Shown: positions 22,546-35,901 of the stretch, one piece after another
Numbering within the stretch: position 1 is the first letter of the stretch
Layout: each line of letters opens with the position of its first letter
DNA from: an uncultured Elusimicrobia bacterium
GTDB taxonomy: Bacteria; Elusimicrobiota; Elusimicrobia; UBA1565; UBA9628
Length of the DNA: 64,000 nucleotides
Assembly: GCA_964358485.1 (NCBI GenBank)
Contig: CAYHPY010000001.1
Coordinates: 17,382 to 81,381, forward strand
Direction: 5' to 3'
Notes under the pieces: model-generated
Told to the model about the DNA's origin: nothing
Databases searched by the model: none
The model's input: the letters and a program-made list of their open reading frames with translations, nothing else
Position numbers and translations under genes: made by a program

Positions 22546-22572
22546 CCAGGCTGCCGTTACGCGGCAGCCTGG
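22546..22572 (-). other. Perfect 11-bp stem / 5-nt loop hairpin spanning the fabZ stop codon, lying between fabZ and lpxA.
   Basis: CCAGGCTGCCG-TTACG-CGGCAGCCTGG. On the mRNA the loop contains the fabZ UAA stop. No U-run follows the hairpin. Confidence 0.6.
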
Positions 22573-23060
22573 GCTTTGTCCACCAACGCAAAGGTCATTT
22601 CGGCCTCGGCGGCCATTTTCCCGTCGACGAAGGCTTCGCCGCGGAACTTGCCGGCACGGCCCAGGCGCAGGACCTCGATGTGGAGCTTGAGCACCATGCC
22701 CGGCAGGACCGGGGCGCGGAACTTCGCCTCGCTGATGCCCATGAATAGGGCCAGCTTGCCCGCCGCGGCCGAGCCCCCGCCTTTGGAGAGGAGCATGACG
22801 CAGGCGGCCTGGGCCAGGGCCTCGATGATGAGGACGCCGGGCATGATGGGCTGTTCGGGGAAGTGGCCGTTGAAGAAGGGCTCGTTGATGGTGACCATCT
22901 TGGTGCCGATCGCGCGTTTGTCCTCTTCCATGACTTCCACCTTGTCCACCAGCAGAAACGGGTAGCGGTGGGGGATGGCCTTGCGGATGCCGTTGATGTC
23001 GACGACGCGGACGGGCTGGGCGGCCGGGGACGGGGTGTTGGGAGCGGTTTCCGTGGTCAT
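22557..23060 (-). CDS. fabZ: 3-hydroxyacyl-ACP dehydratase.
   Basis: IPHRYPFLLVDKV...EPFFNGHFPEQPIMPGVLIIEALAQ is the hotdog-fold FabZ signature. The start was chosen at MTTET. Confidence 0.9.
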   Translation of the reverse strand: MTTETAPNTPSPAAQPVRVVDINGIRKAIPHRYPFLLVDKVEVMEEDKRAIGTKMVTINEPFFNGHFPEQPIMPGVLIIEALAQAACVMLLSKGGGSAAAGKLALFMGISEAKFRAPVLPGMVLKLHIEVLRLGRAGKFRGEAFVDGKMAAEAEMTFALVDKAQAAA

Positions 23061-23079
23061 GTGTTCCTCCGTGGGTCGG

Positions 23080-23955
23080 TTATTTGGCGGCGGCCGCGGT
23101 CTTGCGCAGCTTGGCCGCCGCGTCGTTGAGCCGTTTGGCGAATTCAATGTTGTGCGCGTGGCCCGGGCACTCGGCCTCGATGCGCATGTTGAACAGCGGG
23201 CGCCCGATCAAGGTGAGGTCTCCCAATAGGTCCAGCATCTTGTGCCGGACGAACTCGTCCGGGAATCTCAGTCCCTCGGTGTTGGTCAGGAATTTGTCCG
23301 TGGCGATGACGATGGCGTTGTTCAAGGAGCCGCCTTGGGCCAGTCCCTGGGATTTGAGGTAGGCAACCTCGTGCTCGAAGCAGAAGGTCCGGGCCGTGGC
23401 CAGCTCCCGGGCGTAGTTGTCGGTGTCGATCTTGGCCGTGAGCGTGGACTTAGGCATCATCGGATGGTCGTGGATAAGGGTGGCCGAAATCTCCAGGCCC
23501 TCGGCCGGGATCGCGCGGTACTTGGACTTGCCGTCCTCGTAGCGGACCTCGCCCGCGAATTGCAGGATGCGTTTGGGGGCGTACGGGAAGGTTTGCAGGC
23601 CCGCCTTGAGCAGGGCCTGCAGAAAGGGCATGGAGGACCCGTCCATGATGGGCGGCTCGTTGGCCGTGACCAGGATGTCGACGTTGTCGATGCCCAGCCC
23701 GGTGCAGGCCGAGAGGACGTGCTCGACGGTGTGGACCTTGGCCTCGTTGAGTCCCAAATTGGTGCCGCGCACGGTGGCGACCACGAACTGCAGGCGCGCC
23801 GGGATCATCGGCGAACCGGGAAGGTCGGTCCGGAAAAAACGGATTCCGGTGTTGGCCGGGGCGGGGCGGAAGGTGAGCTTGGACAGGTTGCCGGTGTGCA
23901 GGCCGATGCCCTCCAGGGTGATTTCGGACTGGATGCTGGTCTGGGGAACGTTCAT
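23080..23955 (-). CDS. lpxC: UDP-3-O-acyl-N-acetylglucosamine deacetylase.
   Basis: LEGIGLHTGNLSKLTFRPAPANTGIRF...KVHTVEHVLSA...HKMLDLLGDL are LpxC motifs. Confidence 0.9.
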   Translation of the reverse strand: MNVPQTSIQSEITLEGIGLHTGNLSKLTFRPAPANTGIRFFRTDLPGSPMIPARLQFVVATVRGTNLGLNEAKVHTVEHVLSACTGLGIDNVDILVTANEPPIMDGSSMPFLQALLKAGLQTFPYAPKRILQFAGEVRYEDGKSKYRAIPAEGLEISATLIHDHPMMPKSTLTAKIDTDNYARELATARTFCFEHEVAYLKSQGLAQGGSLNNAIVIATDKFLTNTEGLRFPDEFVRHKMLDLLGDLTLIGRPLFNMRIEAECPGHAHNIEFAKRLNDAAAKLRKTAAAAK

Positions 23956-23959
23956 GGAG

Positions 23960-25036
23960 CTACTCCCGCCGGTCTCCGGCCGCCGCCTTGGGCGCGCCGA
24001 GGCCGAGCTTTTTTTTGATCTCCTTGACCGAATCGAACAAGTCGGGAAGCCGGCTGTAGAGGGCCTGGAGCTTCATGGCCTCCCGGTGGGGGCGGGACGG
24101 GGAGCCGAAGATCATGGCGCCCTTCTCGACGTCGCCCATCACCCCGGTCTGCGCGAGCACGATGGCCCCGTCGCCGATCTTGAGGTGGCCGATGAGCCCG
24201 GCTTGGCCCGCCAGGATCACGCGGTCGCCGATCTCGGTCGAGCCGGAGACTCCGACCTGGGACACGATGAGGCAGTCCTTGCCGGTTTTGACGTTGTGGG
24301 CCAGCATGACCAGATTGTCGATCTTGGTGCCCGCGCCGACCACGGTGGAGCCGACGGTGGCCCGGTCGATGGTCACGTTGGAGCCGATTTCGACGTCGTC
24401 CTCGATGACGACGTTGCCCAATTGGGGGATTTTCCGGTGGCGTCCGGTCTTCTTGTCGGTGGAAAATCCGTAGCCGTCGCCCCCGATGACCGCCCCGGGC
24501 TGGACGATGACGCGGTCCCCCAGGACGCAGTCCTCGCGCACGACGACACGCGGGTGGAGGAGGCAGTCCTTCCCGATCCGGGCGCCGGCCCCGATGAAGC
24601 ACAGGGCCTCGATCCGGGCCCCGGCTTCCACGACCGCGCCTTTTTCGATAACGGTGAACGCCCCGATCGAGGCGTCCGGGGCCACCTGGGCTTCCGCGTG
24701 GATTTCGGCCTTGGGATGGCGCGCGCGGGGGGGCTTGGGCCGGGCGTCGTTGATGAGGTTGAGGACCTGGGAGAATGCGTACTGGGGATCCTCCACGAAG
24801 ATTCGGTTGGCCGCGCCGCAGGGAAGGTCCTTGTTGGCGGTCGGGAGGATGAGGCAGCCCGCCTTGGAGGCCGCCGCGGCCCCCGTGTATTTCTGGTTGC
24901 CCAGGAAGGAGGCGTCCTTGGGCCCGGCTTCCGCCAGGCCCGCGGCGCCCTCGAGCGGATAGGAGGGATCTCCCGACAGTTCCCCGCCCACGATCCCGGC
25001 CAGTTCTCCCACCGTCAATCGGATTTTCATGGTCAT
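23960..25036 (-). CDS. lpxD: UDP-3-O-(3-hydroxyacyl)glucosamine N-acyltransferase.
   Basis: The N-terminal domain is followed by extensive hexapeptide repeats. Length is 358 aa. The gene sits between skp and lpxC. Confidence 0.85.
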
Positions 25037-25950
25037 GATCCCTTGAGCGATTTTAGGACCTTCTCGGTCAGGTCCACGGCCTCGTGGCCGAAGAGGATGG
25101 CTCCCTTGTCCACCACGACGCTGATGCCTTCCCGTCGCGCGGTCTCCTGGACCGCCTTGTGAATTTTCCCCAGCAGGATCTCGGTGCGCCGGCTTTCCAG
25201 GTCCATGAGGTTCTTCTCGGCGGCCGCTTGATGCTCTTTAAAATCCCGTTCCCGGGTCTCAAGCTCCCGGGTTTTGACGGCCAGTTTCTCGGCGAGTTCG
25301 GCCAGGGCTCCGGCATGGGCGGCGGGGGCGGGGGGCGGCGGGGGAACGGGCGCGGGAACCGGGGCGGGGGCGACGGCGGGGGTGGAGGTTTGGACCTCGG
25401 TAGTGATCACGACGCCGGAGGCGGCCGGGGCGGCCAGGCCCGGAAGGGCTGCGACGGCGGTCCGGGTGGAGAGCAGGGCGTCCAGGGCCGCCTGGTCGGA
25501 GCCGCCCTTGGTGGACACGGTCAAGCCTTCCTGGGCGAGGAGCGCGGCGGCGGCCGAGAGGGTTTCCTTGGAAGCGGCGCCGATGGCGGCCGCGGGGGCC
25601 GGAGTTTCGGTGGGGGGCGCCGCGGGCGCGGGACTGGGCGGGGCGACAGGCGGGGGCGGCGCCAGATTTTTAAGCGCCTCCTGCTCGGCCCGTAGGCGAG
25701 AGATTTCGTTTTTGAGCTTGAGAATCTCAGCTTTCCGCAGGCCGACCTGTTCCTCGGCTTGGCGGATGACCTCCTCGAAATGCTCCTTGGCCCGCAGGGT
25801 CTCCGGAAAAAGCCGGTATACCCTGCGCATGTCCACGAAGCCGATGTTGCCCCGCTGGGCCCTGTTCTCCTCCAACGATAGTTCTATGGCGGGCGATTGG
25901 CGCGTTAGCGCCAAGAGCACGCCGAGAACTATCATTGCTGTATTTTTCAT
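25033..25950 (-). CDS. skp: Skp/OmpH-family periplasmic chaperone carrying a ~120-aa Pro/Ala-rich insertion.
   Basis: Signal peptide. OmpH-like coiled-coil N- and C-terminal segments (…[11 protein letters not shown]… and …[27 protein letters not shown]). The central region is [16 protein letters not shown]…[15 protein letters not shown] low-complexity sequence. Confidence 0.7.
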
Positions 25951-25977
25951 CCGTTGTCGAACTTTTTGTTCAGCTGT

Positions 25978-28512
25978 TTAAAATAGATTCCCCAACCCGA
26001 AGTTGATCTGGTAAAGCCTCTCTCCCGGCCGGTGGTTGAGGCCGTAGCCGTAGTCCAGGCGGATCGGAAACGCGGGGGTCGTGAAGCGCAGGCCGATGCC
26101 GACGTTGGTCTTGAGATCCCGCATGCCGGTGCCGATCCGCATTTTGATGTCCTGAGGCCGGTCCCATGCCGAGCCCATGTCGAAGAAGGCCACCAATTTG
26201 ACGATGCTTCGCCGCCGCTCGCGCGCCAAGGGGAATCCGAATTCGACGTTGAGGACCTCGGAAACCTTGCCGCCGGAGGGAAACCCCACCTCTCCGGACG
26301 CCGCGTAGCCCCGCAGGGAGTCCTGTCCGCCCACGAAGAAGCGCTCGTTGACCGGCACCACCTTTGTCGGGCCGAACGGGGTGATGTAGGAAAGGCGGTT
26401 GAGCATCGCCAGCACGAAAGGGTAGTCCGCGATGGAGAAGACCGTGTGGTAGATCGAGTTGTTGAGGGACGGCTTGAAGAAATGGATGTGGCCCCCGACC
26501 GGCCCGCCGGAGAATTGGGCGCCCAGGGAGTGCCGGCTGCCGCGGGTCGTGTCCCAGATGTTGTCCCGGGTGTCCCGGGCCATGGCCGCGCCCACGACCG
26601 ACTGCACCTGGGTCCCCTCGGAAAGGATTCCCCGGAAGAGGTCTTGGACGCTGTCGATGGTGATTTGCCGGTAGGTGTAGGCCAGGTCCAGGTGGTACTT
26701 GTCGGCTTGGAACCGCGGCCCGAGGTTGATCGAGCCGCCGCGCTGTTTGAGGGTGTAGGCCGAGAGCGAGGTCTGGAAAGGCTGAATCCGCCGGTTGTTG
26801 AAGACCTCCAGGCCGAGGCTCGTGGATTTGTCCGACTTCCAGGGGGTCCAGGAATAGGCGTCCAGCCAGGGCATGTAATAGGAGACGGTGAAGTCCTGAA
26901 CCCGGCCGCCGAACTGCCACTGGACGTTGCTGCGGTGCGCCACGCCCCAGAGATTCATGTGGGCCAAGGAAAGCGTTCCGATGAAGCCGTCCACCGAGGA
27001 GAAGGCCGCCCCGGCCGTCAGCAGGCCCGGCTTGCCTTCCACCACGTCGAAGATCACGTCCACCTTTTCCGGGTCCGGGCGGGGCTGGAGGTCCACCCCC
27101 ACGTCATCGATGAACCCCAGGTTCATGATCCGCTCGCGGCTGCGCCGGATGCGGGAGGCCGAGAAGGCCTCGCCCGGCTTGACGATCAATTCGCGCTTGA
27201 GGACCCGGGTCTTAGTGGCCTTGTTGCCCTCCAAGTCCACGTGGTCGATGTAGACGATGTTGCCTTCCGTGACCTTGTACTCCACGTCCATGAGGTCGGT
27301 CTTGGGGTTGAGGGTCTTGTTCGGCTTGACCCGGGCGTGGAGGCGTCCTTTCTCGGCGTAGAGCTCCTGCACGCCGCGGACGGTCTCTTCGTAGCGCTCC
27401 TGGTTGAAGATCTTGCCCCGGCGGTACTCGATGGCCTTGGCCAGCTCGGTCGAGGTGTAGATGATGTTGCCCGAGAAGGAACTGTCGCCGAACTTGTACT
27501 GCCGCCCCTCGGTCAGCGGGATGACGATGGTGATCTCGGTCTTGTCCGGGTTGTAGGTCCAGGCGGCCGAGCCCACGGACACGTCCAGGTAGCCGTTGTT
27601 GAGGTAGAAGGTCTCGATTTTTTTGACGTCCTCGGGCAGTTCCTTTTCCAAAAAGACCTTTTTCCGGCGGTTTTTCATCTGCTTGAGGACCTTCTTGGGC
27701 TTGAAGGATTTGACCGTCTCGATGCGGATTTCCTTGATCTTGGATTTGGGGCCCTCGACGATGGTGTAGATGACGTCGGCCATCATGGTGGAGGTGTCCA
27801 GGTCCACGCGCGAGCTGACCGTGGCCTCCAGGAAGCCCTTGTCCTTGTATTTCTCGAGAATCTTGTCCTCGTCCTCCCGCAGCTTGATGGAATCGACGGG
27901 GTCCTTGGCTTTGATGGTGGCCGCGTCGCCCAGGGTGCCTTTGCCGACCTTCTTGTTGCCTTCGAAAATGATCTTCCGGGCCAGGGGTTTTTCCTTGACG
28001 ATGAAGGTGAGCAGAATCTGGTGTTCGGCCCCGGCCACCTTCCGGAAATTCTCCGGGATGGGCTTGTCGGTCAGGGTCACGTCGGCCTGGACGCGCTCGA
28101 AGTTTCCCAGGCCGTAGATGGACTGGATGTCGCGGTCCAGGTCGGGCTTGTCGTAAAGATCGCCCTTTTTGGCCTTGACCTGGGAGCGAACTACCGTGAA
28201 TTTGACGTTCTTGTTGCCCTGGACGGCGATTTCGCCCAGCACCCAGGGGCGGGGGACCTCGGGGGACTCAAGGGCGGCGGCCGTGGAGACCGCGACCGCG
28301 GCGGTGGAAAGGTTCACCCCGGAGGCGGCGGAGGAGGAGACCCAAACCGCGGTTTGCGTGGAAATCGCGGTAAAAGTCGAGATCGCGGGGATGCCGGGGA
28401 GGGTGATGGTGGAGACTTGGGGCGGCGTTACGGCGGTGCCGGTGGACGCCGCCGGCACGGCCGGTTGGGACCAGGCCGCCGCCGCCAGGAGAATCCGCAT
28501 GGCAAGTATCAT
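25978..28512 (-). CDS. bamA: Outer-membrane protein assembly factor BamA.
   Basis: 844 aa. Multiple POTRA repeats and a C-terminal Omp85 beta-barrel (…RLDYGYGLNHRPGERLYQINFGLGNLF ends in a terminal F). Canonical position upstream of skp-lpxD. Confidence 0.9.
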   Translation of the reverse strand: MILAMRILLAAAAWSQPAVPAASTGTAVTPPQVSTITLPGIPAISTFTAISTQTAVWVSSSAASGVNLSTAAVAVSTAAALESPEVPRPWVLGEIAVQGNKNVKFTVVRSQVKAKKGDLYDKPDLDRDIQSIYGLGNFERVQADVTLTDKPIPENFRKVAGAEHQILLTFIVKEKPLARKIIFEGNKKVGKGTLGDAATIKAKDPVDSIKLREDEDKILEKYKDKGFLEATVSSRVDLDTSTMMADVIYTIVEGPKSKIKEIRIETVKSFKPKKVLKQMKNRRKKVFLEKELPEDVKKIETFYLNNGYLDVSVGSAAWTYNPDKTEITIVIPLTEGRQYKFGDSSFSGNIIYTSTELAKAIEYRRGKIFNQERYEETVRGVQELYAEKGRLHARVKPNKTLNPKTDLMDVEYKVTEGNIVYIDHVDLEGNKATKTRVLKRELIVKPGEAFSASRIRRSRERIMNLGFIDDVGVDLQPRPDPEKVDVIFDVVEGKPGLLTAGAAFSSVDGFIGTLSLAHMNLWGVAHRSNVQWQFGGRVQDFTVSYYMPWLDAYSWTPWKSDKSTSLGLEVFNNRRIQPFQTSLSAYTLKQRGGSINLGPRFQADKYHLDLAYTYRQITIDSVQDLFRGILSEGTQVQSVVGAAMARDTRDNIWDTTRGSRHSLGAQFSGGPVGGHIHFFKPSLNNSIYHTVFSIADYPFVLAMLNRLSYITPFGPTKVVPVNERFFVGGQDSLRGYAASGEVGFPSGGKVSEVLNVEFGFPLARERRRSIVKLVAFFDMGSAWDRPQDIKMRIGTGMRDLKTNVGIGLRFTTPAFPIRLDYGYGLNHRPGERLYQINFGLGNLF

Positions 28513-28571
28513 CTCCGGGCGTCCCGGAGATGCCTAAAATCCGTGGAAAAAGTCACGCCGTCAGAGTATAC

Positions 28572-28608
28572 TAAAAAGGAAGGGCCCCAAGCGGGGCCCT
28601 TCCTTTTT
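28572..28608. terminator. Bidirectional intrinsic terminator ending the inositol operon.
   Basis: AAAAAGGAAGGGCCCC-AAGC-GGGGCCCTTCCTTTTT. A 13-bp GC-rich stem flanked by A5 and T5 runs, located 43 bp past the MIPS stop. Confidence 0.8.
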
Positions 28609-28650
28609 GCCTCTCTTGTTCCGTTTTCTCTATTGTTTTTCTGTATTTTT

Positions 28651-30084
28651 TTATTTCGGCGTCAGCCGTTTCCCCGGCTTGTTGGCCGGTTTCAGGGCTT
28701 TCTTCGGCGGCGTCGCCGGCTCCGGGGTCCCCAACTCCGGGTCGTAGTAATCCAAGCCGGAATGGTCCAGCACTTCCTCGCCCATCAACAGGCGCAGGGT
28801 GTTCTTGAGCTTCAAGTGCTGGATGAACAGGTCGTGCTCGGGCTGAAGGTCCGGGCGGCATTGGGGGGACTTGAAGTAGAAGGACAGCCACTCCTGGATG
28901 CCCTTGAGGCCCGCCCGCTTGGCCAGGTCCATGAAGAGCACCAGGTCCAGGACGATCGGCGCGGCCAGAATCGAGTCCCGGCAGAGGAAGTTGATCTTGA
29001 CCTGCATGGGGTACCCCAGCCAGCCCGCGATGTCGATGTTGTCCCAGCCTTCCTTGGCGTCGCCGCGGGGGGGGTAATAGTCGATGCGGACCTTGTGGTG
29101 GTACTTGCCGTAGAGCTCCGGATACAGGGCGGGCTCCAGGATGGTGTCCAACACCGACATCTTGCTGAGTTCCTTGGTTTTGAAGGAGCCCGGGTCGTCG
29201 AGGACCTCGCCGTCCCGGTTGCCCAAAATGTTCGTCGAGTACCAGCCGCGCAGGGCCAGCATCCGGGCCTTGAGCATGGGGGCGATGGTGGTCTTCATCA
29301 GAGTCTGGCCGGTCTTGAAGTCCTTGCCGCCGATGGGGGCGCCGGTCTTTTCGGCCAATTCGACCAGGGCCGGGACGTCGCCGCTCAAGTTGGGGGCTCC
29401 GTTGGCGTAGGGGATGCCCTGGGAGACCGCGGCGTAGGCGTAGATCATGGATGGGGGGATGTCCGGGGAGTCGGCTTTCATCGCCGCTTCCAGGCCCGCC
29501 AGGGACTCGTGGGCCGGGGAGTCCTTGGGCAGGACTTCCGTGGACCCGCACCAGACCATGACCAAGCGGTCCACGCCGGTCCGCTTTTTAAAGCTTTGGA
29601 TGTCGGCGATCACCTGCTGGGCCAGCTCCCAGCGCGTGGCTTTTTTCTTGGCGTTGGTGGCCTTGAGGTTCTTGATGTAGGCCGGATCAAAGACCGCCGT
29701 CATGGGCTTGATCTGCTCGAGCGCCGCCTTGACCGGCTCGATCTGGGTCCGTTCCAGCACGCCGCACTTGAGCGCCGCTTCCCACATGTTGTCGGGGAAC
29801 AGGTCCCAGCCCCCGAACACCAGGTCCTTGAGGCCCGCCAAGGGCACGAAATCCTTGATGAGGGGGTGTCGGTCCTCATAGCGCTTGCCCAGGCGGATGG
29901 TCTGCAGTTGGGTGACCGAGCCGATGGGCGTGCCCAGGCCGCGCCGGCAGAGCTCGACGCCGGCGATGAAGGTGCTGGTGACGGCGCCCATGCCGGGAAG
30001 CAGGACTCCGAGTTTTCCGCGCGCGGGAAGAATCCGTTGGGGTTTTGCGCCCGAGCCGCCGTTTCCGGTTTTCATGATTTTCAA
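28651..30084 (-). CDS. myo-inositol-1-phosphate synthase family protein (inositol-3-phosphate synthase) with a Lys/Pro-rich C-terminal tail.
   Basis: The Rossmann N-terminus (GVLLPGMGAVTSTFIAG) and overall architecture resemble bacterial and archaeal MIPS (Ino1). The C-terminal ~35 aa are TPEPATPPKKALKPANKPGKRLTPK. Confidence 0.65.
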   Translation of the reverse strand: MKIMKTGNGGSGAKPQRILPARGKLGVLLPGMGAVTSTFIAGVELCRRGLGTPIGSVTQLQTIRLGKRYEDRHPLIKDFVPLAGLKDLVFGGWDLFPDNMWEAALKCGVLERTQIEPVKAALEQIKPMTAVFDPAYIKNLKATNAKKKATRWELAQQVIADIQSFKKRTGVDRLVMVWCGSTEVLPKDSPAHESLAGLEAAMKADSPDIPPSMIYAYAAVSQGIPYANGAPNLSGDVPALVELAEKTGAPIGGKDFKTGQTLMKTTIAPMLKARMLALRGWYSTNILGNRDGEVLDDPGSFKTKELSKMSVLDTILEPALYPELYGKYHHKVRIDYYPPRGDAKEGWDNIDIAGWLGYPMQVKINFLCRDSILAAPIVLDLVLFMDLAKRAGLKGIQEWLSFYFKSPQCRPDLQPEHDLFIQHLKLKNTLRLLMGEEVLDHSGLDYYDPELGTPEPATPPKKALKPANKPGKRLTPK

Positions 30085-30088
30085 CCTC

Positions 30089-31243
30089 TCAAGTCGTTTG
30101 GGATTGGCTCACGGCGGAGGACGACTGCCCGCGAGGAAGCAGGGTCACCGCCAGGAACAGGGGGGCGCCGATGGCGCCCGCCCATAAGAAATAGTAGGTC
30201 CAGCCGAAACCGGCCATGACCAGCAAAAGGTAGATGAAATCCCGCTGGGCCAGAAATTGCTCGATTTTTTGGATCAGGGAGTCCGCGTTTTCCTCCGGGT
30301 CGGGCAGGCCCTCGCGGCGCGCGCGCAGGCTGGACAGCTTCCGGGCGTAGGCCCGGGCCGCCGACCCGATGATTCCGGCCCCCGCGGCCAGGCCCAGAAC
30401 CAGGGCGGCGGGGCGGCTTCCGGCCCGGATAAATCCCAGGGCCAGGCAGGCGAACAGCGAGATGTGGACAAGGTTGTCTCCCCAGAAGTCGATGTCGGCG
30501 CCGAAATCGGATTCCTGGAAGCGGATTCGGGCCAGCTCGCCGTCGCAGCCGTCCAGGACGGAGTGCAGCCAGACGAGCGCGGCCCCGACCATTCCCGCCG
30601 CCGCCCCCGGGGCCAGAAAGCAGAAGGTTCCGAGAAGGCCGATGATGGAGCTTAGGACCGTCATTTGATTGGGGCTGACCGGGCGGTCGATGATCGCGCG
30701 GGTGAAGGCCAGGGAGATGTAGCGGTCAAAATTGCGGGCCATGAAGCCGTCCTGGGATTTAAATCCCAGGGATAACAGCCAATCCTGCACCGGGCCTTCG
30801 TCCATCGGCAGTTGGAGCAGGACGGTCGAGCCGTCCGGGAGCGGCTGTTTGCGAAACGCGGCGGCATCCTCGGTCCGGAAGGGGATCACCTGGATCACCG
30901 AGACGTCGGAGGCGTCGTGGAGGGAGACATGGACCGGGTAGCCGGCGCCGGCGACGTAGCGCAGGGTTTCCTCACGGATGAAATAGTCCCCGGAGATGGC
31001 CAGGTAGGGGGGCTCGAAGCTCAGTTCCTCATCGCCCCGGCGCGCGGCCCAATTGACCTCGAGGCCCGCGGGCGGGCGCAAGGCGGCGAGGCGTTCCTCC
31101 GAGGGCCGCCGGCCCGCGATCCAGACCCTTTTGAGCCCGGCGCGCTTGAGGGTGTGGAGCTGGCGCTCCAGGACCGAGAGTCCGGCCGTCCGCTCGAAGG
31201 GCAGCTTCTCCCGGTTGACCCAGATGACCGCGTTTTCGATCAT
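30089..31243 (-). CDS. CDP-alcohol phosphatidyltransferase with an N-terminal degenerate nucleotidyltransferase-like domain (DIPPS or PIP-synthase-like).
   Basis: CDP-OH phosphotransferase signature DGCDGELAR(x8)G(x3)D... within a six-TM C-terminal half. The soluble N-terminal half (MIENAVIWVNRE…) is NTP-transferase-like but lacks the G-x-G-x-R loop. The start ATG overlaps the upstream stop (ATGA). Confidence 0.7.
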   Translation of the reverse strand: MIENAVIWVNREKLPFERTAGLSVLERQLHTLKRAGLKRVWIAGRRPSEERLAALRPPAGLEVNWAARRGDEELSFEPPYLAISGDYFIREETLRYVAGAGYPVHVSLHDASDVSVIQVIPFRTEDAAAFRKQPLPDGSTVLLQLPMDEGPVQDWLLSLGFKSQDGFMARNFDRYISLAFTRAIIDRPVSPNQMTVLSSIIGLLGTFCFLAPGAAAGMVGAALVWLHSVLDGCDGELARIRFQESDFGADIDFWGDNLVHISLFACLALGFIRAGSRPAALVLGLAAGAGIIGSAARAYARKLSSLRARREGLPDPEENADSLIQKIEQFLAQRDFIYLLLVMAGFGWTYYFLWAGAIGAPLFLAVTLLPRGQSSSAVSQSQTT

Positions 31244-32259
31244 CGCAGGGCCGCCACCGCCGGACGGCTCCGGGTCGCCGGGGCGTAGATCTTGCGAAGG
31301 GCCGAAACGCAAAAACGAGCTTCCTTCAAGTTCTCGAAACGCCTGCGGGGCTGGGAAAGTTCGGCGTGAAAATCCGCCAGCATGGCGGCCAGCCACTCCG
31401 GGTGGGCCGAGCCCGCGGAGATTTTTTCCGGGAAGTCGAACCGCTCTTGCCGGCCGTCCCGCCGGAGGATGAGATGGTCGTCCCGGAGCTCCAGGACTCC
31501 CTTGCGCCCCTCGATGAGGCCCCCATTGGAGCGCTCGGCGGCGCGCCAAGTCAGCCGGAGCAGGGCCGAGGCGGAGGGAAACTTCAGCAGGACCGTGGCC
31601 TCCTCCTCCACGGCGTCGGGCCCGGGCCGGCGAAGATCGGCGGAAATTCCGACGGGGTCCTCGCCGATCAGGCGGAAGATCTGGTAGAGGGCATGCCAGC
31701 CGTGGTCGACCGCGATGCCCCCTCCGGAGAGCGCGGCTTGGGCGCGCCAGGAGCCCGGGTTGGCCTGTCCGGCGGGCTGGGTGCGCAGGGTGTGGAGCTC
31801 GACGTGGGAGATTTTCCCCAAGGCGCCGCCTTGGACGAGCTCGGCGGCCTTGAGCCAGAGCGGGGAGAACGCCCAGTTGTGGACGGTGAAGACCGTTTTG
31901 CCCCGGCGCCGGGCCGAGGCCTCGATTTTCTCCAAGTCGGGGAGTCCGAGGGCCAGGGGTTTTTCGCAGAGCACGTGAAGGCCGCGGCTGAGCGCCTGGA
32001 GGACCAGGGGGGCGTGGGAGGAGGGAGGGGTGGCGATGACGACGAAATCCAGGGCGGACTCGGAACGGAAAAGGGAAGCCCCGTCGGGATAGAAACGAGC
32101 CTTGGGGAGAAGAATGCGGGCCCGGTCCAAACGGGAGGCAACGGAATCGGCAACGGAATCCAAACGGAAATGGACATTCCCGGCAAAGCCGGGAACGTGG
32201 GCCATCTCCACCACCTGCCCAAAGCCGATGAGGCCGCCGCGCCAGATTCTGTCAGCCAT
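31240..32259 (-). CDS. Gfo/Idh/MocA-family oxidoreductase, candidate inositol or inosose dehydrogenase.
   Basis: Rossmann fold GLIGFGQV… and the EKP motif (LCEKPLA). The family includes IolG myo-inositol 2-dehydrogenase. Overlaps the next gene at both ends. Confidence 0.7.
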   Translation of the reverse strand: MADRIWRGGLIGFGQVVEMAHVPGFAGNVHFRLDSVADSVASRLDRARILLPKARFYPDGASLFRSESALDFVVIATPPSSHAPLVLQALSRGLHVLCEKPLALGLPDLEKIEASARRRGKTVFTVHNWAFSPLWLKAAELVQGGALGKISHVELHTLRTQPAGQANPGSWRAQAALSGGGIAVDHGWHALYQIFRLIGEDPVGISADLRRPGPDAVEEEATVLLKFPSASALLRLTWRAAERSNGGLIEGRKGVLELRDDHLILRRDGRQERFDFPEKISAGSAHPEWLAAMLADFHAELSQPRRRFENLKEARFCVSALRKIYAPATRSRPAVAALR

Positions 32260-33586
32260 GCCGCTTGTAGACCGCCATTAGGGATTCTTCCAGGATGTCG
32301 GCCCCGCGCATCGCTTCATCATGCGTGATGACCAGCGGGGGGTTGATCCGCAGGGAGGCGTTATAGGCCATGGTGACCAATCCTCGGGACAGCGCGGTCT
32401 CGAAGATTTCCCGGCAGATCGGCGCGGGCAGGGGCTCCTTGGTCTTGGGGTTCTTGACCAGTTCGACGCCGATGAGCAGCCCTTTGCCGCGGACGTCGCC
32501 GATCCAGGGAAGGCGGCCCGCCATGGCCTGCAGGCGCTTGAGAAGCGCGGCGCCGACCTTGCGGGAATTCTCGACCAGTTTTTCGGAGAGGATGATCGAC
32601 AGGGCCGCGTCGCAGGCCGCCGAGGCCAGGGGATTGCCGCCGTAGCTCGACGAGGACCCCGAGGGGGCGGCCCAGGGCAGGGAGCTGGCGGTCTCGGTGG
32701 AGGCGATGACGCCCGACACCGGAAAGCCCCCGGCGATGCCCTTGCCGACCGTCATGATGTCGGGAACGACCCCGTCGTGCTCGCAGGCAAACATGGCCCC
32801 GGTCCGGCCGAAGCCCGTGATCATCTCGTCGGCGATCAGCAGGGCCTCCTGCTCGCGGCAAAGGTCCTTGAGGCTTTTTAGAAATCCCGCCGGAGGGATG
32901 ACGTTTCCCGCCGTCCCTTGAATCGGCTCGACGATGATCGCGGCCAGGGCCCCGGAGGTCGCGCGGCGCAGGGTTTGCCGGAGGAAATCCAGGCAGTGGC
33001 CCGCGCAGTCATGCTCGCCGGAGGCTCCGAAGGGGCAGCGGTAGGGATTGGGATAAGGGGAGAGGTAAACCCCGGGCATGAGCGGCCCCAGGCCGTGCTT
33101 GAAGGCGTCGCCCAGCAGGCCCAGCACGCCGCCCGTCTTGCCGTGGAAGCCTCCCCAGAAGGAGACGACCTCGAATTTCTTGGTCCGGCTCTTGGCCAGG
33201 CGCAGGGCCGCCTCGACGGCTTCGGCCCCGGAGGAATAAAGCTGAATCCGGTTCAGGTCCCCGGGGGTGACCTTTGCCAGGTTCTTGACGAAGGAAAGCC
33301 GGGCCTTGGTCGTGAAGCTTCCCACCGTCAAGCGCGCGGCCTGCTCGGCCAAGCGCCGGGCGTACTCGGGGTGGCCGTGGCCGACTGAGGCCACGCAGAT
33401 GCCCGCCACGAAATCCAGGTACTCGCGCCCGTCCTCATCCTTGAGGACGCAGCCGCGGCCGCTCTCCATGGCCAGTTTGGAGTACAGGGCGATCGATTGC
33501 AGGCCCGGGGCCAGGTAATCCTGTTCCTCCTCGAAGAGGGCCAGGGATTTGGGTCCCGCGGAAAAGGCCGCCGCCGAGCGCTTCAT
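32252..33586 (-). CDS. Class-III (ornithine/GABA-type) PLP-dependent aminotransferase.
   Basis: LIADEMITGFGRTGAMFACEHDGVVPDIMTVGKGIAGGFPVSGV carries the PLP-lysine motif typical of aminotransferase class III. Confidence 0.8.
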   Translation of the reverse strand: MKRSAAAFSAGPKSLALFEEEQDYLAPGLQSIALYSKLAMESGRGCVLKDEDGREYLDFVAGICVASVGHGHPEYARRLAEQAARLTVGSFTTKARLSFVKNLAKVTPGDLNRIQLYSSGAEAVEAALRLAKSRTKKFEVVSFWGGFHGKTGGVLGLLGDAFKHGLGPLMPGVYLSPYPNPYRCPFGASGEHDCAGHCLDFLRQTLRRATSGALAAIIVEPIQGTAGNVIPPAGFLKSLKDLCREQEALLIADEMITGFGRTGAMFACEHDGVVPDIMTVGKGIAGGFPVSGVIASTETASSLPWAAPSGSSSSYGGNPLASAACDAALSIILSEKLVENSRKVGAALLKRLQAMAGRLPWIGDVRGKGLLIGVELVKNPKTKEPLPAPICREIFETALSRGLVTMAYNASLRINPPLVITHDEAMRGADILEESLMAVYKRHG

Positions 33587-34449
33587 CGCGTGTCCGCCAG
33601 TTCCCCGCGGAGCAGGCGCAGGCGGGAGCTCAGCTTCCAGGCGATCTGCCGGCAGGCCTCCCCGCGGACCTTGGCGAAGCTAGGCCAGGAGTTGACGTCG
33701 ATCAAGGTGACGGTTCCCGAGGGGGAGACGATGGCGTCCCCGCCGAAAATCTCCAGGCCCAGGGCCGCCGCGCCCTTGGCGGCCAGCGCCGCCAGGTGGT
33801 CGATGACAAACGGGATTCGTCGGGCAGTTTCCGGATCGTGGTAGAACCAGGTGAACCACTGGCCCGGACCGACGCCGTAGAACTTGATCAGGTCCCCGTC
33901 GAGATGCTGCTGGAGCACCAGATGGGCGATTTCCCGCTGGGCGAAGTCCGCGCGGATCATTTCCGCCTCGGCGGCGTCGCGCGCGAAAACCACGTCGTGG
34001 CTGCAGGTGTTGTGGACGTCGCCGCGTTTGACCCAGAAGCCGGAGGGCGCCTGGAAGGCCGTCGGGGCCAGGGGGCCCGGGATGGAGGCGGGCAGGATCT
34101 GCGTCGGCGGGAAGGTGATGGTCCGGTCCTTCGAGAACGCGTCGACCATCCGGGTCCGGTAGCAGGAGAGGACCGCGTCGGGAGGATTGAGCACCAGCGG
34201 GCCGCCTTGCGCGGGGGACGGCAACGCCTTGAGCCGCATCAGGCGGGAGTAGGACTCGCACATGGGGACGATGAGATCCCAACCGTTGAGGTCCGCGGAG
34301 TCGGCCTCTTCGGGGGTCAGCAGTTCCGTGCGGATGCGCAAGCCGTCCAGCTCGCCCATGACCGCCCGCAGGATCAGGGCGTCGTCATCCTCGCGGGCCG
34401 GCGAGTTGGTCAGCTCCCGGTATATTCCCAACGCCTTCAAGCTTTCCAT
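33583..34449 (-). CDS. ATP-grasp protein, inositol-phosphate kinase (ITPK1)-like.
   Basis: ATP-grasp hallmarks: FWVKRGDVH, LVLQQHLDGDLIKFY and IFGGDAIVSPSGTVTLIDVNSWPSF. The last resembles the ITPK1 DVNxFPG motif. Confidence 0.5.
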   Translation of the reverse strand: MESLKALGIYRELTNSPAREDDDALILRAVMGELDGLRIRTELLTPEEADSADLNGWDLIVPMCESYSRLMRLKALPSPAQGGPLVLNPPDAVLSCYRTRMVDAFSKDRTITFPPTQILPASIPGPLAPTAFQAPSGFWVKRGDVHNTCSHDVVFARDAAEAEMIRADFAQREIAHLVLQQHLDGDLIKFYGVGPGQWFTWFYHDPETARRIPFVIDHLAALAAKGAAALGLEIFGGDAIVSPSGTVTLIDVNSWPSFAKVRGEACRQIAWKLSSRLRLLRGELADTR

Positions 34450-35144
34450 GTCCCCTCCGACTGCTTCAGAAATTCCTCGGCCGCCGCCAAATCCTCGGGG
34501 CGGTCCACGTCGATGGTTTTGCCCAGGTCCACGCCGGCCACGGGGGCGCCCTCCGCGATCAGGCTCCCCAGGTAGGAGCGCAGGTTCGGGTAGGCCGCGG
34601 CCGCCGGCAGGCGGCGGGCCAGTTCCGGGTCCAACCGATAGAGGCCGGCCGTCGCGAATTTTTTCCCCTGGGCGTTTTCGCCCAGGGCCGAGATCCGGCC
34701 ATTTTCGTCGAGGTCGGCCCATAGGGGTTTCTCGTCGTTGATATAACTGCTGACCCCGAGGGCATTTGTATAACGCCCGGGGTCGATCATTCGTTCCAGG
34801 GCGGCGGGGGGCAGGAGGCAATCGACGGTGGAGATGACAAACGGCTCATCGCCCAATTCGGCCAAAGTTCCGGCGACGAGCCGGAAGCTCTCCCAAGACG
34901 ATTTCGTGTCCGCCTTTAAAAAGATAAGTTCCGTACCCCTAAATTCCGTTTCCAGAAATTTTTTCACCGCCGTTCCTCTGCTGTTTATTAGGACCACGAT
35001 CTTTTTCATGCCCGCCGCCAAAAGCCCCCGCACGACCCAGCCGATCAGCGGAACGCCCGCCACCGGGACCAAAGGTTTGGGCAGGCCGGGATGAGCCCCG
35101 GCCAGGCGGACTCCGTCTCCGGCGGCGATGATCCCCGCGTTCAC
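34437..35144 (-). CDS. Sugar-phosphate or inositol-phosphate nucleotidyltransferase (NTP_transferase family). Uses a GTG start.
   Basis: Canonical motif IIAAGDGVRLAGAHPGLPKPLVPVAGVPLIGWVVRGL. The GTG start overlaps the HAD stop (GTGA). Confidence 0.75.
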   Translation of the reverse strand: MNAGIIAAGDGVRLAGAHPGLPKPLVPVAGVPLIGWVVRGLLAAGMKKIVVLINSRGTAVKKFLETEFRGTELIFLKADTKSSWESFRLVAGTLAELGDEPFVISTVDCLLPPAALERMIDPGRYTNALGVSSYINDEKPLWADLDENGRISALGENAQGKKFATAGLYRLDPELARRLPAAAAYPNLRSYLGSLIAEGAPVAGVDLGKTIDVDRPEDLAAAEEFLKQSEGTWKA

Positions 35145-35824
35145 GCCGCCTCCGAGAGCCGGGGCTCCAGCTCCGACAGGGTGGAAATCCTCCACCCCTG
35201 GCGGCAGCAGGAGGGCCCGCCGTTTCGGGCCAGCAGGGCGTGGCGCAGCCCCAGGTTTTCGGCCCCGCGCATGTCCCGCGGGATGGAGTCTCCCACCATC
35301 ACGCAGTCCCCGGGCCGAAGTCCCAGGGCTTCGATGGCGAAGCGGAAAAGGCGGGCATCCGGTTTTTCCACGCCCACCGCGCCGGAATCGGCGACCACGT
35401 CGAACAAATCGCGCAGGCCTTCGGCCGCCAGAACGCTTTCCAGGTTTCCGTAGAAATTGGAGACGATCCCGAGGCGAAAGCGGGCCGCCAAGCGCTCCAG
35501 GACGGGGCGGTTTAGGGCGAAATTCGCCCGGCATTCCTTGAGAAATTCATCCACCACCAGGCGTTCCAGATTCGACTCTCCGCCCCGGCCGCGGCCGAGG
35601 CCTTCCAAGACGCAGCGGACTTGGAGGGAGAGGGTTTCGCGTAGGCCCAGGTTCTTGAGGGGGAAGCGACGCGAGAGATTGTCGTCCGAGGCGTAGAAAG
35701 CCTTGTCGAAGTCGGCCCGGTCCCGGACCACCCCGCTTTCCTTATAGATGCGAAAGAATCGGTCCCCCCAGGCGGCGCCCCGGGAATCGAGGGTTCCTCC
35801 AAAATCGAAAAGAATGGATTTCAT
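35141..35824 (-). CDS. HAD-superfamily phosphatase.
   Basis: Motif I LFDFGGTLD (DxDxT-type), motif III K, and motif IV MVGDSIPRD. It is the first gene of the operon. Confidence 0.75.
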   Translation of the reverse strand: MKSILFDFGGTLDSRGAAWGDRFFRIYKESGVVRDRADFDKAFYASDDNLSRRFPLKNLGLRETLSLQVRCVLEGLGRGRGGESNLERLVVDEFLKECRANFALNRPVLERLAARFRLGIVSNFYGNLESVLAAEGLRDLFDVVADSGAVGVEKPDARLFRFAIEALGLRPGDCVMVGDSIPRDMRGAENLGLRHALLARNGGPSCCRQGWRISTLSELEPRLSEAA

Positions 35825-35901
35825 GGTCGGGGGCAATCGCTGATTTTACCAATCCTGGCGCCGACCGTCCAGTCGCTGTTTGGACGGGAATTTGTCTGGG
35901 C

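What the first reader, a model, noticed from the sequence alone, without database searches (positions are those of the whole stretch)
30089..35144. IPCT/DIPPS-like activity split across two genes, with a degenerate nucleotidyltransferase domain retained on the CDP-alcohol transferase
In archaeal and thermophile IPCT/DIPPS the cytidylyltransferase and CDP-alcohol phosphotransferase are fused. Here the membrane CDP-OH transferase (30089-31243) keeps an N-terminal NT-like domain of about 190 aa that lacks the G-x-G-x-R nucleotide loop (MIENAVIWVNRE…). A separate gene four ORFs upstream (34437-35144) has the canonical loop (IIAAGDGVRLAGAHPGLPKPL). This suggests the fused domain has become regulatory, substrate-channeling or pseudo-enzymatic, with the catalytic activity supplied in trans.
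Basis: inference. Interest (0 to 1): 0.55.

Follow-up and report, generated by a model that had tools for sequence, protein, structure and literature searches.

The report
Dead cytidylyltransferase domain on membrane transferase
A membrane enzyme of a groundwater Elusimicrobia bacterium carries a catalytically dead relic of a cytidylyltransferase domain while an intact version is encoded four genes upstream; the fused architecture has a solved precedent (AF2299), but the conserved seven-gene inositol operon around it has not been described.

Summary
Gene 30089-31243 (minus strand, 384 aa) has an intact six-helix CDP-alcohol phosphotransferase domain. That domain models confidently as a nucleotidyltransferase fold. 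Profile comparison links it specifically to the IPCT half of bifunctional IPCT/DIPPS (E 1.1e-5; controls 0.12-0.64). It lacks the G-x-G-x-R loop, the following Lys and the whole C-terminal lobe, and none of 120 homologues has the loop. Gene 34437-35144 is a complete nucleotidyltransferase with every motif.

Both genes lie in a translationally coupled seven-gene operon: HAD, NT, ATP-grasp, class-III aminotransferase, Gfo/Idh/MocA oxidoreductase, pseudoNT-CDP-AP, inositol-phosphate synthase. The operon keeps the same order in six other Elusimicrobia loci, and a seventh lacks only the adjacent MIPS gene. It always lies between pilMNOQ and bamA, followed by skp and lpx genes wherever the locus extends that far.

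A dead cytidylyltransferase-like domain on a CDP-alcohol transferase is not new: Archaeoglobus AF2299 (PDB 4O6M; Pfam PF21682) has it. Split NT + CDP-AP + MIPS + HAD clusters are also described.

New here are this domain family, which no Pfam model covers, and the extra oxidoreductase, aminotransferase and ATP-grasp genes. These suggest an aminated cyclitol phosphodiester rather than DIP. The role of the dead domain is untested.

The parts
30764..31243 (-). Pseudo-nucleotidyltransferase domain (residues 1-160 of the 384-aa protein). It is a truncated relic of an IPCT-type cytidylyltransferase without the G-x-G-x-R loop, the Lys or the C-terminal lobe.
   Evidence: No Pfam or NCBIfam hit. AF2 pLDDT 90.2, pTM 0.86. 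Foldseek PDB top 50 are all NT fold, 113 hits with E<1e-3. hhalign to a profile of 65 IPCT domains: Prob 82%, E 1.1e-5, residues 18-102 aligned to IPCT 24-122, with controls at E 0.12-0.64. 13 of 36 members weakly hit NTP_transf_3. 0 of 120 have a G-loop; E26, R27, G36, R56, P58, W65, P79, S84 and W155 are invariant.
30089..30763 (-). Juxtamembrane helix plus six-helix CDP-alcohol phosphotransferase domain (residues 161-384, stop codon included). The catalytic motif DGCDGELARIRFQESDFGADIDFWGD lies at nt 30476-30553.
   Evidence: PF01066 at 44.8 bits. Best PDB sequence match is AF2299 4o6m at E 2.3e-21, then IPCT/DIPPS 4mnd at 1.4e-12. Motif intact in 119 of 120 homologues. 34-40% identity to AF2299-like and 29-39% to IPCT/DIPPS membrane domains, and six hydrophobic segments.
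34437..35144 (-). Standalone complete nucleotidyltransferase (235 aa). The stretch from G-D-G-V-R through Lys23 lies at nt 35076-35120.
   Evidence: PF12804 at 36.7 bits and PF00483. End-to-end match to the IPCT half of NF041135 and to GlmU-N and MurU models. hhalign to the IPCT-domain profile: Prob 99.6%, E 9e-24, 221 columns. G-x-G-x-R loop and Lys conserved in all five orthologues (G-D-G-x-R in four, G-E-G-S-R in one).
35141..35836 (-). HAD-superfamily hydrolase (231 aa), first gene of the operon; putative phosphatase.
   Evidence: PF00702 at E 5e-18. Fused to the NT in one orthologous locus, L005 (472 aa).
33583..34449 (-). ATP-grasp enzyme (288 aa) with no Pfam model; possibly an ITPK-like inositol(-phosphate) kinase, otherwise a ligase.
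   Evidence: No Pfam or NCBIfam hit. 1031 homologues. AF2 pLDDT 89.4. Foldseek: ArgX/LysX, DcsG, Ddl, RimK, ITPK1 and PPIP5K2 at E 1e-12 to 1e-11. In a profile search of PDB sequences the only ATP-grasp hits are ITPK4 (E 0.041) and ITPK1 (E about 0.18).
32252..33586 (-). Class-III (omega) aminotransferase, 444 aa.
   Evidence: PF00202 at E 2e-103. Nearest solved structures are GABA-aminotransferase-like enzymes.
31240..32259 (-). Gfo/Idh/MocA NAD(P) oxidoreductase, 339 aa.
   Evidence: PF01408 and PF22725. NCBIfam hits include inositol 2-dehydrogenase. PDB hits include glucose-fructose oxidoreductase, scyllo-inositol dehydrogenase and inositol 2-dehydrogenase.
28651..30084 (-). myo-Inositol-1-phosphate synthase, 477 aa, last gene of the operon.
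   Evidence: PF07994 at E 4e-97 and PF01658 at E 7e-33.

Best explanation
Gene 30089-31243 encodes a dimer-type, six-helix CDP-alcohol phosphotransferase of the DIPPS/AF2299 clade with a complete catalytic motif.

Its ~160-aa cytosolic N-terminal domain is a pseudoenzyme, a relic of the IPCT cytidylyltransferase domain of an ancestral bifunctional IPCT/DIPPS. It keeps the first beta-alpha-beta core and the IPCT-specific motifs G-L-x-(V/L)-L-E-R, W and S-G-D-H-F. It has lost the G-x-G-x-R triphosphate loop and the following Lys; the loop is shortened from 16 to 9 residues. It has also lost the whole C-terminal lobe, so it cannot make a CDP-alcohol by the canonical mechanism.

That step is done in trans by the complete nucleotidyltransferase at 34437-35144, in the same translationally coupled operon. 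This NT is not a recent copy of the lost domain. It belongs to another NT lineage, which suggests displacement, perhaps tied to a changed substrate.

Inferred pathway:
1. MIPS makes inositol phosphate.
2. The Gfo/Idh/MocA oxidoreductase and the class-III aminotransferase convert one cyclitol hydroxyl to an amine.
3. The ATP-grasp enzyme phosphorylates the cyclitol (ITPK-like) or ligates onto it.
4. The HAD enzyme removes a phosphate.
5. The NT makes the CDP-cyclitol.
6. The membrane enzyme transfers the phospho-cyclitol to an alcohol acceptor.

The dead domain is retained, under strong purifying selection, as a cytosolic cap and scaffold on the membrane domain, as in AF2299. It may also dock a ligand or a partner.

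Shown: domain identities, loss of motifs, operon conservation. Inferred: the substrates, the product and the role of the dead domain.
For: Fold and homology of the dead domain:
- AF2 model with pLDDT 90; all top 50 Foldseek PDB hits are NT-fold enzymes, including IPCT 2xmh/2xme.
- hhalign to the IPCT profile gives E 1.1e-5 over 85 columns; controls give E 0.12-0.64.
- NTP_transf_3 is the only recurrent weak Pfam hit, in 13 of 36 members.

Loss of catalytic elements:
- 0 of 120 homologues have a G-loop, and D86 is only 89 of 120.
- The alignment starts after the IPCT G-loop and Lys and ends at IPCT position 122 of about 245.

Purifying selection: 18 invariant columns across 36 sequences that share less than 62% identity.

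Active membrane domain: motif present in 119 of 120 homologues; AF2299 at E 2e-21 and DIPPS at 1e-12.

Trans NT:
- hhalign to the IPCT profile gives E 9e-24 end to end with all motifs.
- Neighbouring genes overlap by 4-13 nt.
- The operon order is identical in L001-L005 and L086, and L089 lacks only the adjacent MIPS.
- HAD and NT are fused in L005.

[quoted passage not shown] The AF2299 orthologue begins MRLAYVKNHEIYSKKLLGLRLGERIEKTLQRAGF, with no G-loop and in the same register.

Pathway hints: the GFO is nearest to inositol and sugar dehydrogenases; the aminotransferase is an omega-transaminase; the ATP-grasp fold is confirmed, with ITPK as the only sequence-level relative.
Against: - The dead domain does not match Pfam AF_2299-like_N, and its direct hhalign to AF2299-like N-termini is weak (E 0.044). 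Common descent with AF2299's domain, as opposed to parallel decay, is therefore not established.
- The standalone NT scores higher against GlmU-N and MurU models than against IPCT. Its substrate is unknown, and CTP use is only inferred from the partner enzyme.
- The ATP-grasp could be a ligase rather than a kinase.
- No product is known, and nothing tests a scaffold versus a regulatory role.
Confidence: 0.7

Rival explanations
1. The operon simply makes di-myo-inositol phosphate (a compatible solute) by a split IPCT + DIPPS + phosphatase pathway. The oxidoreductase, aminotransferase and ATP-grasp genes are unrelated passengers.
For: MIPS, NT, a DIPPS-clade CDP-AP and a HAD phosphatase are the four activities DIP synthesis needs. 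The best NCBIfam hit of the membrane domain is IPCT/DIPPS. IPCT/DIPPS also occurs in non-thermophiles (PMC7265257).
Against: The three extra genes sit between the NT and the CDP-AP with 4-13 nt overlaps. They are present in the same order in all seven related Elusimicrobia loci, at about 50-60% protein identity.
Confidence: 0.1
2. The membrane enzyme is a phosphatidylinositol-phosphate-synthase-like lipid enzyme that uses CDP-diacylglycerol, or it transfers a phospho-cyclitol onto a lipid. Either way it builds an inositol or aminocyclitol envelope lipid. In the CDP-DAG version the standalone NT serves another step.
For: NCBIfam archaetidylinositol-phosphate synthase and PIP synthase models hit at E 1e-12 and 1e-10. 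The operon always abuts bamA, followed by skp and lpx genes wherever the locus extends that far. A MIPS + NT + CDP-AP + HAD cluster is proposed to make inositol lipids in Bacteroides vulgatus (PMC9246714).
Against: The membrane domain is closer to the soluble-substrate enzymes AF2299 and DIPPS than to PIP synthases: 79.7 and 50.8 bits against 32 bits or less. Six-helix CDP-APs are reported to use soluble acceptors (PMC4634129). The NT is operon-coupled and fused to the HAD in L005.
Confidence: 0.15
3. The N-terminal domain is not an inert scaffold. It is a ligand-sensing or partner-docking regulatory module: it binds inositol phosphate or CDP-cyclitol, or it recruits the free NT for channelling, like GMPPA or GalF relative to their active paralogues.
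For: Invariant polar residues E26, R27, R56, S84, R90 and D110 are more than a fold needs. The retained IPCT-specific motifs are not the nucleotide loop. Some family members add a class-III nucleotide cyclase domain in front of it in the same operon. The NT-fold pseudoenzymes GMPPA and eIF2B appear among the structural neighbours.
Against: No binding or interaction data exist. Conserved residues could equally form the interface with the membrane domain, as in AF2299 (PMC4634129).
Confidence: 0.25
4. The N-terminal domain is still a working nucleotidyltransferase with a non-canonical active site.
For: It has an NT fold and is strongly conserved.
Against: The G-loop, the Lys and the entire C-terminal lobe are missing in all 120 homologues. 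The Mg-binding Asp equivalent is variable, at 89 of 120. A complete NT is always encoded alongside it.
Confidence: 0.03

Closest known systems
AF2299 of Archaeoglobus fulgidus (PDB 4O6M, 4O6N, 4Q7C; Pfam PF21682 AF_2299-like_N + PF01066)
   Same: Same two-domain architecture and size: a ~145-160 aa cytosolic cytidylyltransferase-like domain without a G-x-G-x-R loop, followed by a juxtamembrane helix and a six-helix CDP-AP. It is the best PDB sequence match of the membrane domain (E 2.3e-21). The N-terminal beta1-loop-alpha1 register is the same, and both align to the same IPCT segment.
   Different: The N-terminal domain here does not match PF21682, and the direct profile match is weak (E 0.044). 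The membrane domains share only 34-40% identity. The Archaeoglobus orthologue lies beside deoxyhypusine synthase and HGD-D genes, and the nearest NT is 4 kb away. Here the gene is inside a seven-gene inositol operon. Accounts of AF2299's function conflict: PMC4634129 says it does not process lipids, while PMC8633023 says it is 'probably' involved in PI-phosphate synthesis.
Bifunctional IPCT/DIPPS (A. fulgidus AF0263, PDB 4MND; NCBIfam NF041135)
   Same: The membrane domain is homologous (E 1.4e-12). The N-terminal domain is homologous to the IPCT domain by profile comparison and shares the LIER-, W- and DH-type motifs. Genomic association with MIPS is also shared: in the scan, many of the 65 fused IPCT/DIPPS loci have MIPS adjacent.
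   Different: In IPCT/DIPPS the N-terminal domain is about 230-250 aa, keeps G-x-G-x-R and K-P-L, and is active. Here it is about 160 aa and lacks them. The score against NF041135 is 73 bits against a cutoff of 580.
Split IPCT and DIPPS genes (Thermotoga and some Crenarchaeota, from my own knowledge of Rodrigues et al. 2007, not re-read here) and standalone ~200-aa DIPPS-like proteins
   Same: The cytidylyltransferase and the CDP-alcohol transferase are encoded as separate genes.
   Different: In those cases the transferase has no N-terminal NT-like domain at all. Relatives of the AF2299 membrane domain of 94-215 aa, several labelled partial and many on short contigs, are common. Here a dead domain is retained.
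Bacteroides vulgatus-type 'alternative' inositol lipid cluster (Heaver et al. 2022, PMC9246714)
   Same: MIPS + NTP-transferase + CDP-alcohol phosphatidyltransferase + HAD hydrolase are clustered, and the NT is proposed to make CDP-inositol.
   Different: That cluster is not reported to contain an oxidoreductase, an aminotransferase or an ATP-grasp gene, nor an NT-like domain on the transferase. Its function is also unconfirmed.
NT-fold pseudoenzymes that accompany an active paralogue (GMPPA with GMPPB, GalF with GalU, eIF2B gamma/epsilon)
   Same: A nucleotidyltransferase fold that has lost catalysis and is kept for regulation or assembly. GMPPA/GMPPB and eIF2B structures are among the Foldseek neighbours, and GalF is among the NCBIfam hits of the standalone NT.
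   Different: Those are soluble full-length paralogues. Here the dead domain is truncated and covalently fused to a membrane enzyme. No interaction with the active NT has been shown.

Membership tests
Class I CDP-alcohol phosphotransferases (PF01066) | Signature D1xxD2G1xxAR...G2xxxD3xxxD4 | tested here: met
   DGCDGELARIRFQESDFGADIDFWGD at residues 231-256; present in 119 of 120 homologues.
Class I CDP-alcohol phosphotransferases (PF01066) | Pfam model score above the gathering threshold | tested here: met
   44.8 bits against a cutoff of 22, residues 190-356.
Class I CDP-alcohol phosphotransferases (PF01066) | Six transmembrane helices (the soluble-acceptor type) | tested here: inconclusive
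   A Kyte-Doolittle scan gives six hydrophobic peaks in residues 196-369, two pairs of which overlap. No dedicated topology predictor or full-length model was run.
Bifunctional IPCT/DIPPS (NF041135) | Equivalog score of at least 580 bits with both halves matched | tested here: not met
   73.2 bits; only residues 162-300 align, to the DIPPS half.
Bifunctional IPCT/DIPPS (NF041135) | N-terminal domain with the G-x-G-x-R loop and the following Lys (K-P-L) | tested here: not met
   Absent in the window protein and in all 120 homologues. The profile alignment begins after this segment.
AF2299-like CDP-AP (PF21682 AF_2299-like_N + PF01066) | N-terminal domain matches PF21682 | tested here: not met
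   PF21682 hits the Archaeoglobus orthologue at E 3.7e-70. It does not hit the window protein at E<=0.01 or any of the 36 family members at E<=10.
AF2299-like CDP-AP (PF21682 AF_2299-like_N + PF01066) | Architecture: a short G-loop-less cytidylyltransferase-like domain directly preceding the juxtamembrane helix of a DIPPS-clade membrane domain | tested here: met
   AF2299 is the best PDB match. The orthologue sequence shows the same layout. Both N-termini align to the same IPCT segment. Direct hhalign gives E 0.044.
Nucleotidyltransferase (GT-A-like NT fold; NTP_transf_3 and NTP_transferase) | Fold of the N-terminal domain of the fused protein | tested here: met
   AF2 pLDDT 90.2. 113 PDB hits at E<1e-3, and the top 50 are all NT enzymes.
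Nucleotidyltransferase (GT-A-like NT fold; NTP_transf_3 and NTP_transferase) | Catalytic signature (G-x-G-x-R, Lys, conserved acidic residue) in the fused N-terminal domain | tested here: not met
   No loop and no Lys. The Asp equivalent, D86, is present in only 89 of 120 homologues.
Nucleotidyltransferase (GT-A-like NT fold; NTP_transf_3 and NTP_transferase) | Standalone gene 34437-35144: Pfam threshold and catalytic signature | tested here: met
   PF12804 at 36.7 bits against 27. IIAAGDGVRL...LPKPL, ISTVD and DVDRPEDL are conserved in the orthologues.
CTP:inositol-1-phosphate cytidylyltransferase (IPCT) | Substrate specificity of the standalone NT (CTP plus inositol-1-phosphate) | not testable with these tools
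   There is a full-length profile match to IPCT domains (E 9e-24). However, GlmU-N and MurU models score higher than NF041135, and the IPCT-specific LIER and DH motifs are absent.
ATP-grasp superfamily / ITPK inositol-phosphate kinases | ATP-grasp fold; specific relation to ITPK | tested here: inconclusive
   The fold is met (Foldseek E 1e-12). The ITPK relation is only suggestive: ITPK4 at E 0.041 and ITPK1 at about 0.18.

The most novel reading that the evidence does not exclude
The seven-gene operon, conserved across Elusimicrobiota next to the outer-membrane biogenesis genes, encodes an undescribed pathway. It would run from glucose-6-phosphate through an aminated cyclitol (inosamine) phosphate and a CDP-aminocyclitol to a new phosphodiester head group or solute. 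The dead IPCT domain would be kept as an obligatory structural or regulatory module of the final membrane transferase. In some lineages it would be placed under a fused class-III nucleotide cyclase domain. This would also give the first functional context for AF2299-type enzymes.
Probability: 0.3. Interest if true: 0.7.

Novelty: new variant of a known kind. Interest (0 to 1): 0.45.

Why it matters
AF2299-type CDP-alcohol phosphotransferases are the structural reference for the whole enzyme family, and the AF2299 N-terminal domain is used as a crystallisation chaperone. Yet the papers read here give conflicting accounts of AF2299's physiological role, and they assign its cytidylyltransferase-like domain no function beyond contacts with the membrane domain and the crystal lattice.

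This locus provides three things:
- A clear evolutionary reading. The domain is a decayed IPCT, and a different NT lineage has taken over catalysis.
- A tightly conserved operon that names candidate substrates and makes the question testable by heterologous expression.
- A hint that Elusimicrobia, a phylum with almost no biochemistry, make an inositol- or aminocyclitol-phosphate compound linked to their envelope gene cluster.

The pseudo-domain observation on its own is a modest advance, because the architecture is already known.

Tried and rejected
- An HMM profile of the N-terminal domain (A1) against PDB sequences found nothing relevant.
- hhalign of A1 against the six-sequence alignment of the operon's own NT gave no signal (E 0.29). 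The link appeared only with a 65-sequence IPCT-domain profile.
- The third homologue search, with the AF2299 membrane fragment, returned only short DIPPS-like proteins of 94-215 aa and not AF2299 itself. The AF2299 orthologue sequence was instead recovered from the genome scan.
- The papers by Sciara 2014, Brito 2011 and Rodrigues 2007 are not held. What AF2299's authors say about the domain is cited only through PMC4634129 and PMC8633023.
- An upstream alternative start (TTG 31549) was considered and rejected. The extra 102 aa overlap the oxidoreductase gene in another frame, have no NT-like sequence, and are absent from all homologues and from the independent gene call.
- I considered whether the ATP-grasp plus class-III aminotransferase pair reflects a LysX/LysJ-type carrier-protein pathway. 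I rejected this as unsupported, because I saw no LysW-like carrier or the other pathway genes among the genes I annotated in the operon.
- A literature search for Elusimicrobia together with inositol-1-phosphate synthase found no paper.

Full report
**What is at the coordinates**

The minus strand between 35836 and 28651 carries seven genes whose ends overlap or nearly touch:
- HAD hydrolase, 35836-35141
- nucleotidyltransferase (NT), 35144-34437
- a 288-aa protein with no Pfam model, 34449-33583
- class-III aminotransferase, 33586-32252
- Gfo/Idh/MocA oxidoreductase, 32259-31240
- the gene of the finding, 31243-30089
- myo-inositol-1-phosphate synthase (MIPS), 30084-28651

Five junctions overlap by 4-13 nt and the last leaves a 4-nt gap, which indicates translational coupling. 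Pfam and NCBIfam confirm these identities. An identical protein on a Hainich groundwater contig is called with the same start. Named homologues come almost entirely from Elusimicrobia metagenome-assembled genomes.

**The fused protein**

Residues 190-356 match CDP-OH_P_transf (44.8 bits against a cutoff of 22). The eight-residue catalytic signature is intact at residues 231-256 and is present in 119 of 120 homologues. The best solved relative by sequence is AF2299 of Archaeoglobus fulgidus (4o6m, E 2.3e-21). The bifunctional IPCT/DIPPS (4mnd, 1.4e-12) follows, and PIP synthases come far behind. BLAST against 82 AF2299- and DIPPS-type ORFs gives 34-40% identity to AF2299-like membrane domains and 29-39% to IPCT/DIPPS membrane domains. 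The membrane domain is therefore an apparently active member of the DIPPS/AF2299 clade.

**The N-terminal domain**

The first ~160 residues match no Pfam or NCBIfam model. I built an alignment of 36 family members that share less than 62% identity (A1).
- It has 18 invariant columns, including G21, E26, R27, T31, G36, R56, P58, W65, P79, Y80 and S84.
- None of 120 homologues has a G-x-G-x-[RK] at the canonical place.
- AlphaFold2 on A1 gives a confident model (pLDDT 90.2, pTM 0.86).
- Foldseek against the PDB returns 113 hits at E<1e-3. The top 50 are all nucleotidyltransferase-fold proteins: GDP-mannose pyrophosphorylase, RmlA, CobY, IspD, KdsB, IPCT 2xmh/2xme, GMPPA/B and eIF2B.
- At the sequence level, NTP_transf_3 is the only recurrent weak Pfam hit (13 of 36 members, best E 0.0024). 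It aligns residues 18-53 to profile positions 20-56, that is, after the glycine loop.

**Link to IPCT**

A genome scan seeded with the AF2299 membrane segment returned 80 loci. Of these, 65 encode classical fused IPCT/DIPPS proteins, many of them next to MIPS. I cut out their IPCT domains and built a profile from them.
- hhalign of A1 against this profile gives Prob 82% and E 1.1e-5. Residues 18-102 align to IPCT positions 24-122.
- The same query against the reversed profile and against five unrelated operon families gives E 0.12-0.64.
- The shared motifs are IPCT-specific. G-L-x-V-L-E-R-Q-L-x-T-x-x-R-A-G aligns to L-G-l-p-L-I-E-R-v-I-x-x-a-x-x-a-G. The invariant W65 aligns to the W of N-x-x-W. 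S-G-D-H-F-I-R aligns to M-x-D-H-l-F-d.
- The missing parts are IPCT's first ~23 residues (I-i-A-A-G-x-G-s-R-l...s-K-P-L) and its whole C-terminal half (positions 123-245). Seventeen residues with a loop of 9 instead of 16 replace the former, and about 60 unrelated residues replace the latter.
- The Asp equivalent to the metal-binding Asp of NT enzymes is present in only 89 of 120 homologues. The identification of this Asp as the metal ligand is my own knowledge of GlmU and RmlA.

The domain is thus a truncated, catalytically dead IPCT relic that is nevertheless under strong purifying selection.

**The standalone NT**

The product of 34437-35144 passes the NTP_transf_3 threshold. It aligns end to end with the IPCT half of NF041135 and with GlmU-N and MurU models. 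Its six-member family matches the IPCT-domain profile at Prob 99.6% and E 9e-24 over 221 columns. It retains G-D-G-x-R-L, K-P-L, the S-T-x-D motif and D-V-D-R-P-E-D. It lacks the IPCT-specific L-I-E-R and D-H motifs that the dead domain still has, and it scores better against generic sugar-phosphate NT models than against IPCT. I read this as a different NT lineage having taken over the activation step, rather than a recent split of one gene. That reading is an inference.

**Conservation of the context**

- Six other Elusimicrobia loci carry all seven genes in the same order: L001-L005 and L086. Their proteins are about 45-60% identical to those of the window.
- A seventh locus, L089, lacks only the adjacent MIPS.
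- The operon always lies between divergent pilMNOQ and bamA, followed by skp and lpx genes wherever the locus extends that far.
- The window has the same downstream array: bamA, skp, lpxD, lpxC, fabZ, lpxA, lpxI and lpxB.
- In L005 the HAD and the NT are one 472-aa protein.
- An exhaustive HMMER search of 1.84 billion representatives with A1 finds only 45 proteins at E<=1e-3. None of the 19 whose sequences I retrieved has a glycine loop.
- Named members are Elusimicrobia, plus one from Gemmatimonadales. In that Gemmatimonadales locus the protein again sits beside standalone NTs.

**What the operon may make**

- The unknown 288-aa protein models confidently (pLDDT 89.4) as an ATP-grasp enzyme. 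Foldseek hits include ArgX/LysX, DcsG, Ddl, RimK, ITPK1 and PPIP5K2 at E about 1e-12 to 1e-11.
- At the sequence level the only ATP-grasp relatives in the PDB are inositol-phosphate kinases: ITPK4 at E 0.041 and four ITPK1 entries at about 0.18. This is suggestive, not significant.
- The oxidoreductase is nearest to glucose-fructose oxidoreductase and to scyllo- and myo-inositol dehydrogenases.
- The aminotransferase is a GABA-aminotransferase-like omega-transaminase.

All seven genes fit one linear scheme. Inositol phosphate is dephosphorylated, oxidised, transaminated, re-phosphorylated, CDP-activated and transferred to an alcohol. The order of steps, the product and the acceptor are inferred and not shown. 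Plain di-myo-inositol phosphate needs only four of the seven genes.

**Comparison with what is known**

The architecture has a solved precedent. [quoted passage not shown]
- An Archaeoglobus orthologue, 95% identical in the membrane segment, begins MRLAYVKNHEIYSKKLLGLRLGERIEKTLQRAGF. It has no glycine loop and the same register as MIENAVIWVNREKLPFERTAGLSVLERQLHTLKRAGL.
- Its N-terminus aligns to the same IPCT segment (E 1.3e-4).
- Pfam has a model for it, PF21682 AF_2299-like_N (E 3.7e-70 on that orthologue).
- The Elusimicrobia domain does not match that model, and direct hhalign gives only E 0.044.

It is therefore an analogous and probably related, but separate, family.

Split NT + CDP-AP + MIPS + HAD clusters have been described in Bacteroides and Prevotella, with unconfirmed function (PMC9246714). 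Split IPCT and DIPPS genes exist in some thermophiles (my own knowledge).

**Verdict**

The role of the domain is untested, and the assumed DIP chemistry is probably too narrow. The pseudo-domain itself is a new variant of a known kind. The operon is the more interesting, open part.

Noticed in passing
L086:8001-10013 (P0311); also P0312, P0313, P0318, P0319, P0323: Six representative family members carry an extra 200-290-aa N-terminal region in front of the pseudo-NT and CDP-AP domains. In four of them it matches the class-III adenylate/guanylate cyclase domain PF00211 (E 7e-22 for P0311, which has the FSDIQGFT metal motif). P0312 and P0323 have a similar region with no Pfam hit. The P0311 variant sits in the same seven-gene operon. 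This suggests cyclic-nucleotide-linked control of the membrane transferase.
   Followed up: partly
L005:3293-4711: The HAD hydrolase and the nucleotidyltransferase are fused into one 472-aa protein in one orthologous Elusimicrobia locus. This fusion links the two activities functionally.
   Followed up: no
window 35141-35836 (-): The HAD protein begins MKSILFDFGGTLD, so motif I reads D-x-G-x-T rather than the usual phosphatase D-x-D-x-T. The one orthologue sequence I read (L005) has the same FDFGGTLD. Whether it is a phosphatase or does other chemistry is open.
   Followed up: no
window 33583-34449 (-): This 288-aa ATP-grasp family has no Pfam or NCBIfam model. The search returned 1031 homologues; the 120 best are about 58-65% identical to the window protein, and all named ones are Elusimicrobia. 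It has many invariant residues. Its only sequence-level relatives in the PDB are ITPK-type inositol-phosphate kinases, at sub-significant E-values.
   Followed up: partly
window 16992-28512 (-): Directly downstream on the same strand lies an outer-membrane biogenesis array: bamA, skp, lpxD, lpxC, fabZ, lpxA, lpxI, a second Gfo/Idh/MocA oxidoreductase (19826-20872), an SDR (19018-19806) and lpxB. The oxidoreductase inside the lpx array might relate to lipid A sugar modification. pilMNO(P)Q lie divergently upstream, from 36040 onward.
   Followed up: partly
L088:5203-9903 (Gemmatimonadales contig): A distant pseudoNT-CDP-AP (P0351, 371 aa) lies next to a second CDP-AP (309 aa), an Aminotran_5 gene and two NTP_transferases, inside a glycosyltransferase and flippase polysaccharide locus. 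This is a different context from the Elusimicrobia operon, but standalone NTs are again alongside.
   Followed up: no
L089:3427-9110: In one Elusimicrobia lineage (P0338) the operon lacks the adjacent MIPS gene. A sigma-70 factor and a VWA protein follow instead.
   Followed up: no
window 26032-30219 (+): A 1395-aa open frame runs antisense to bamA, MIPS and the start of the CDP-AP gene. I take it to be an artefact of high G+C content, not a gene.
   Followed up: no
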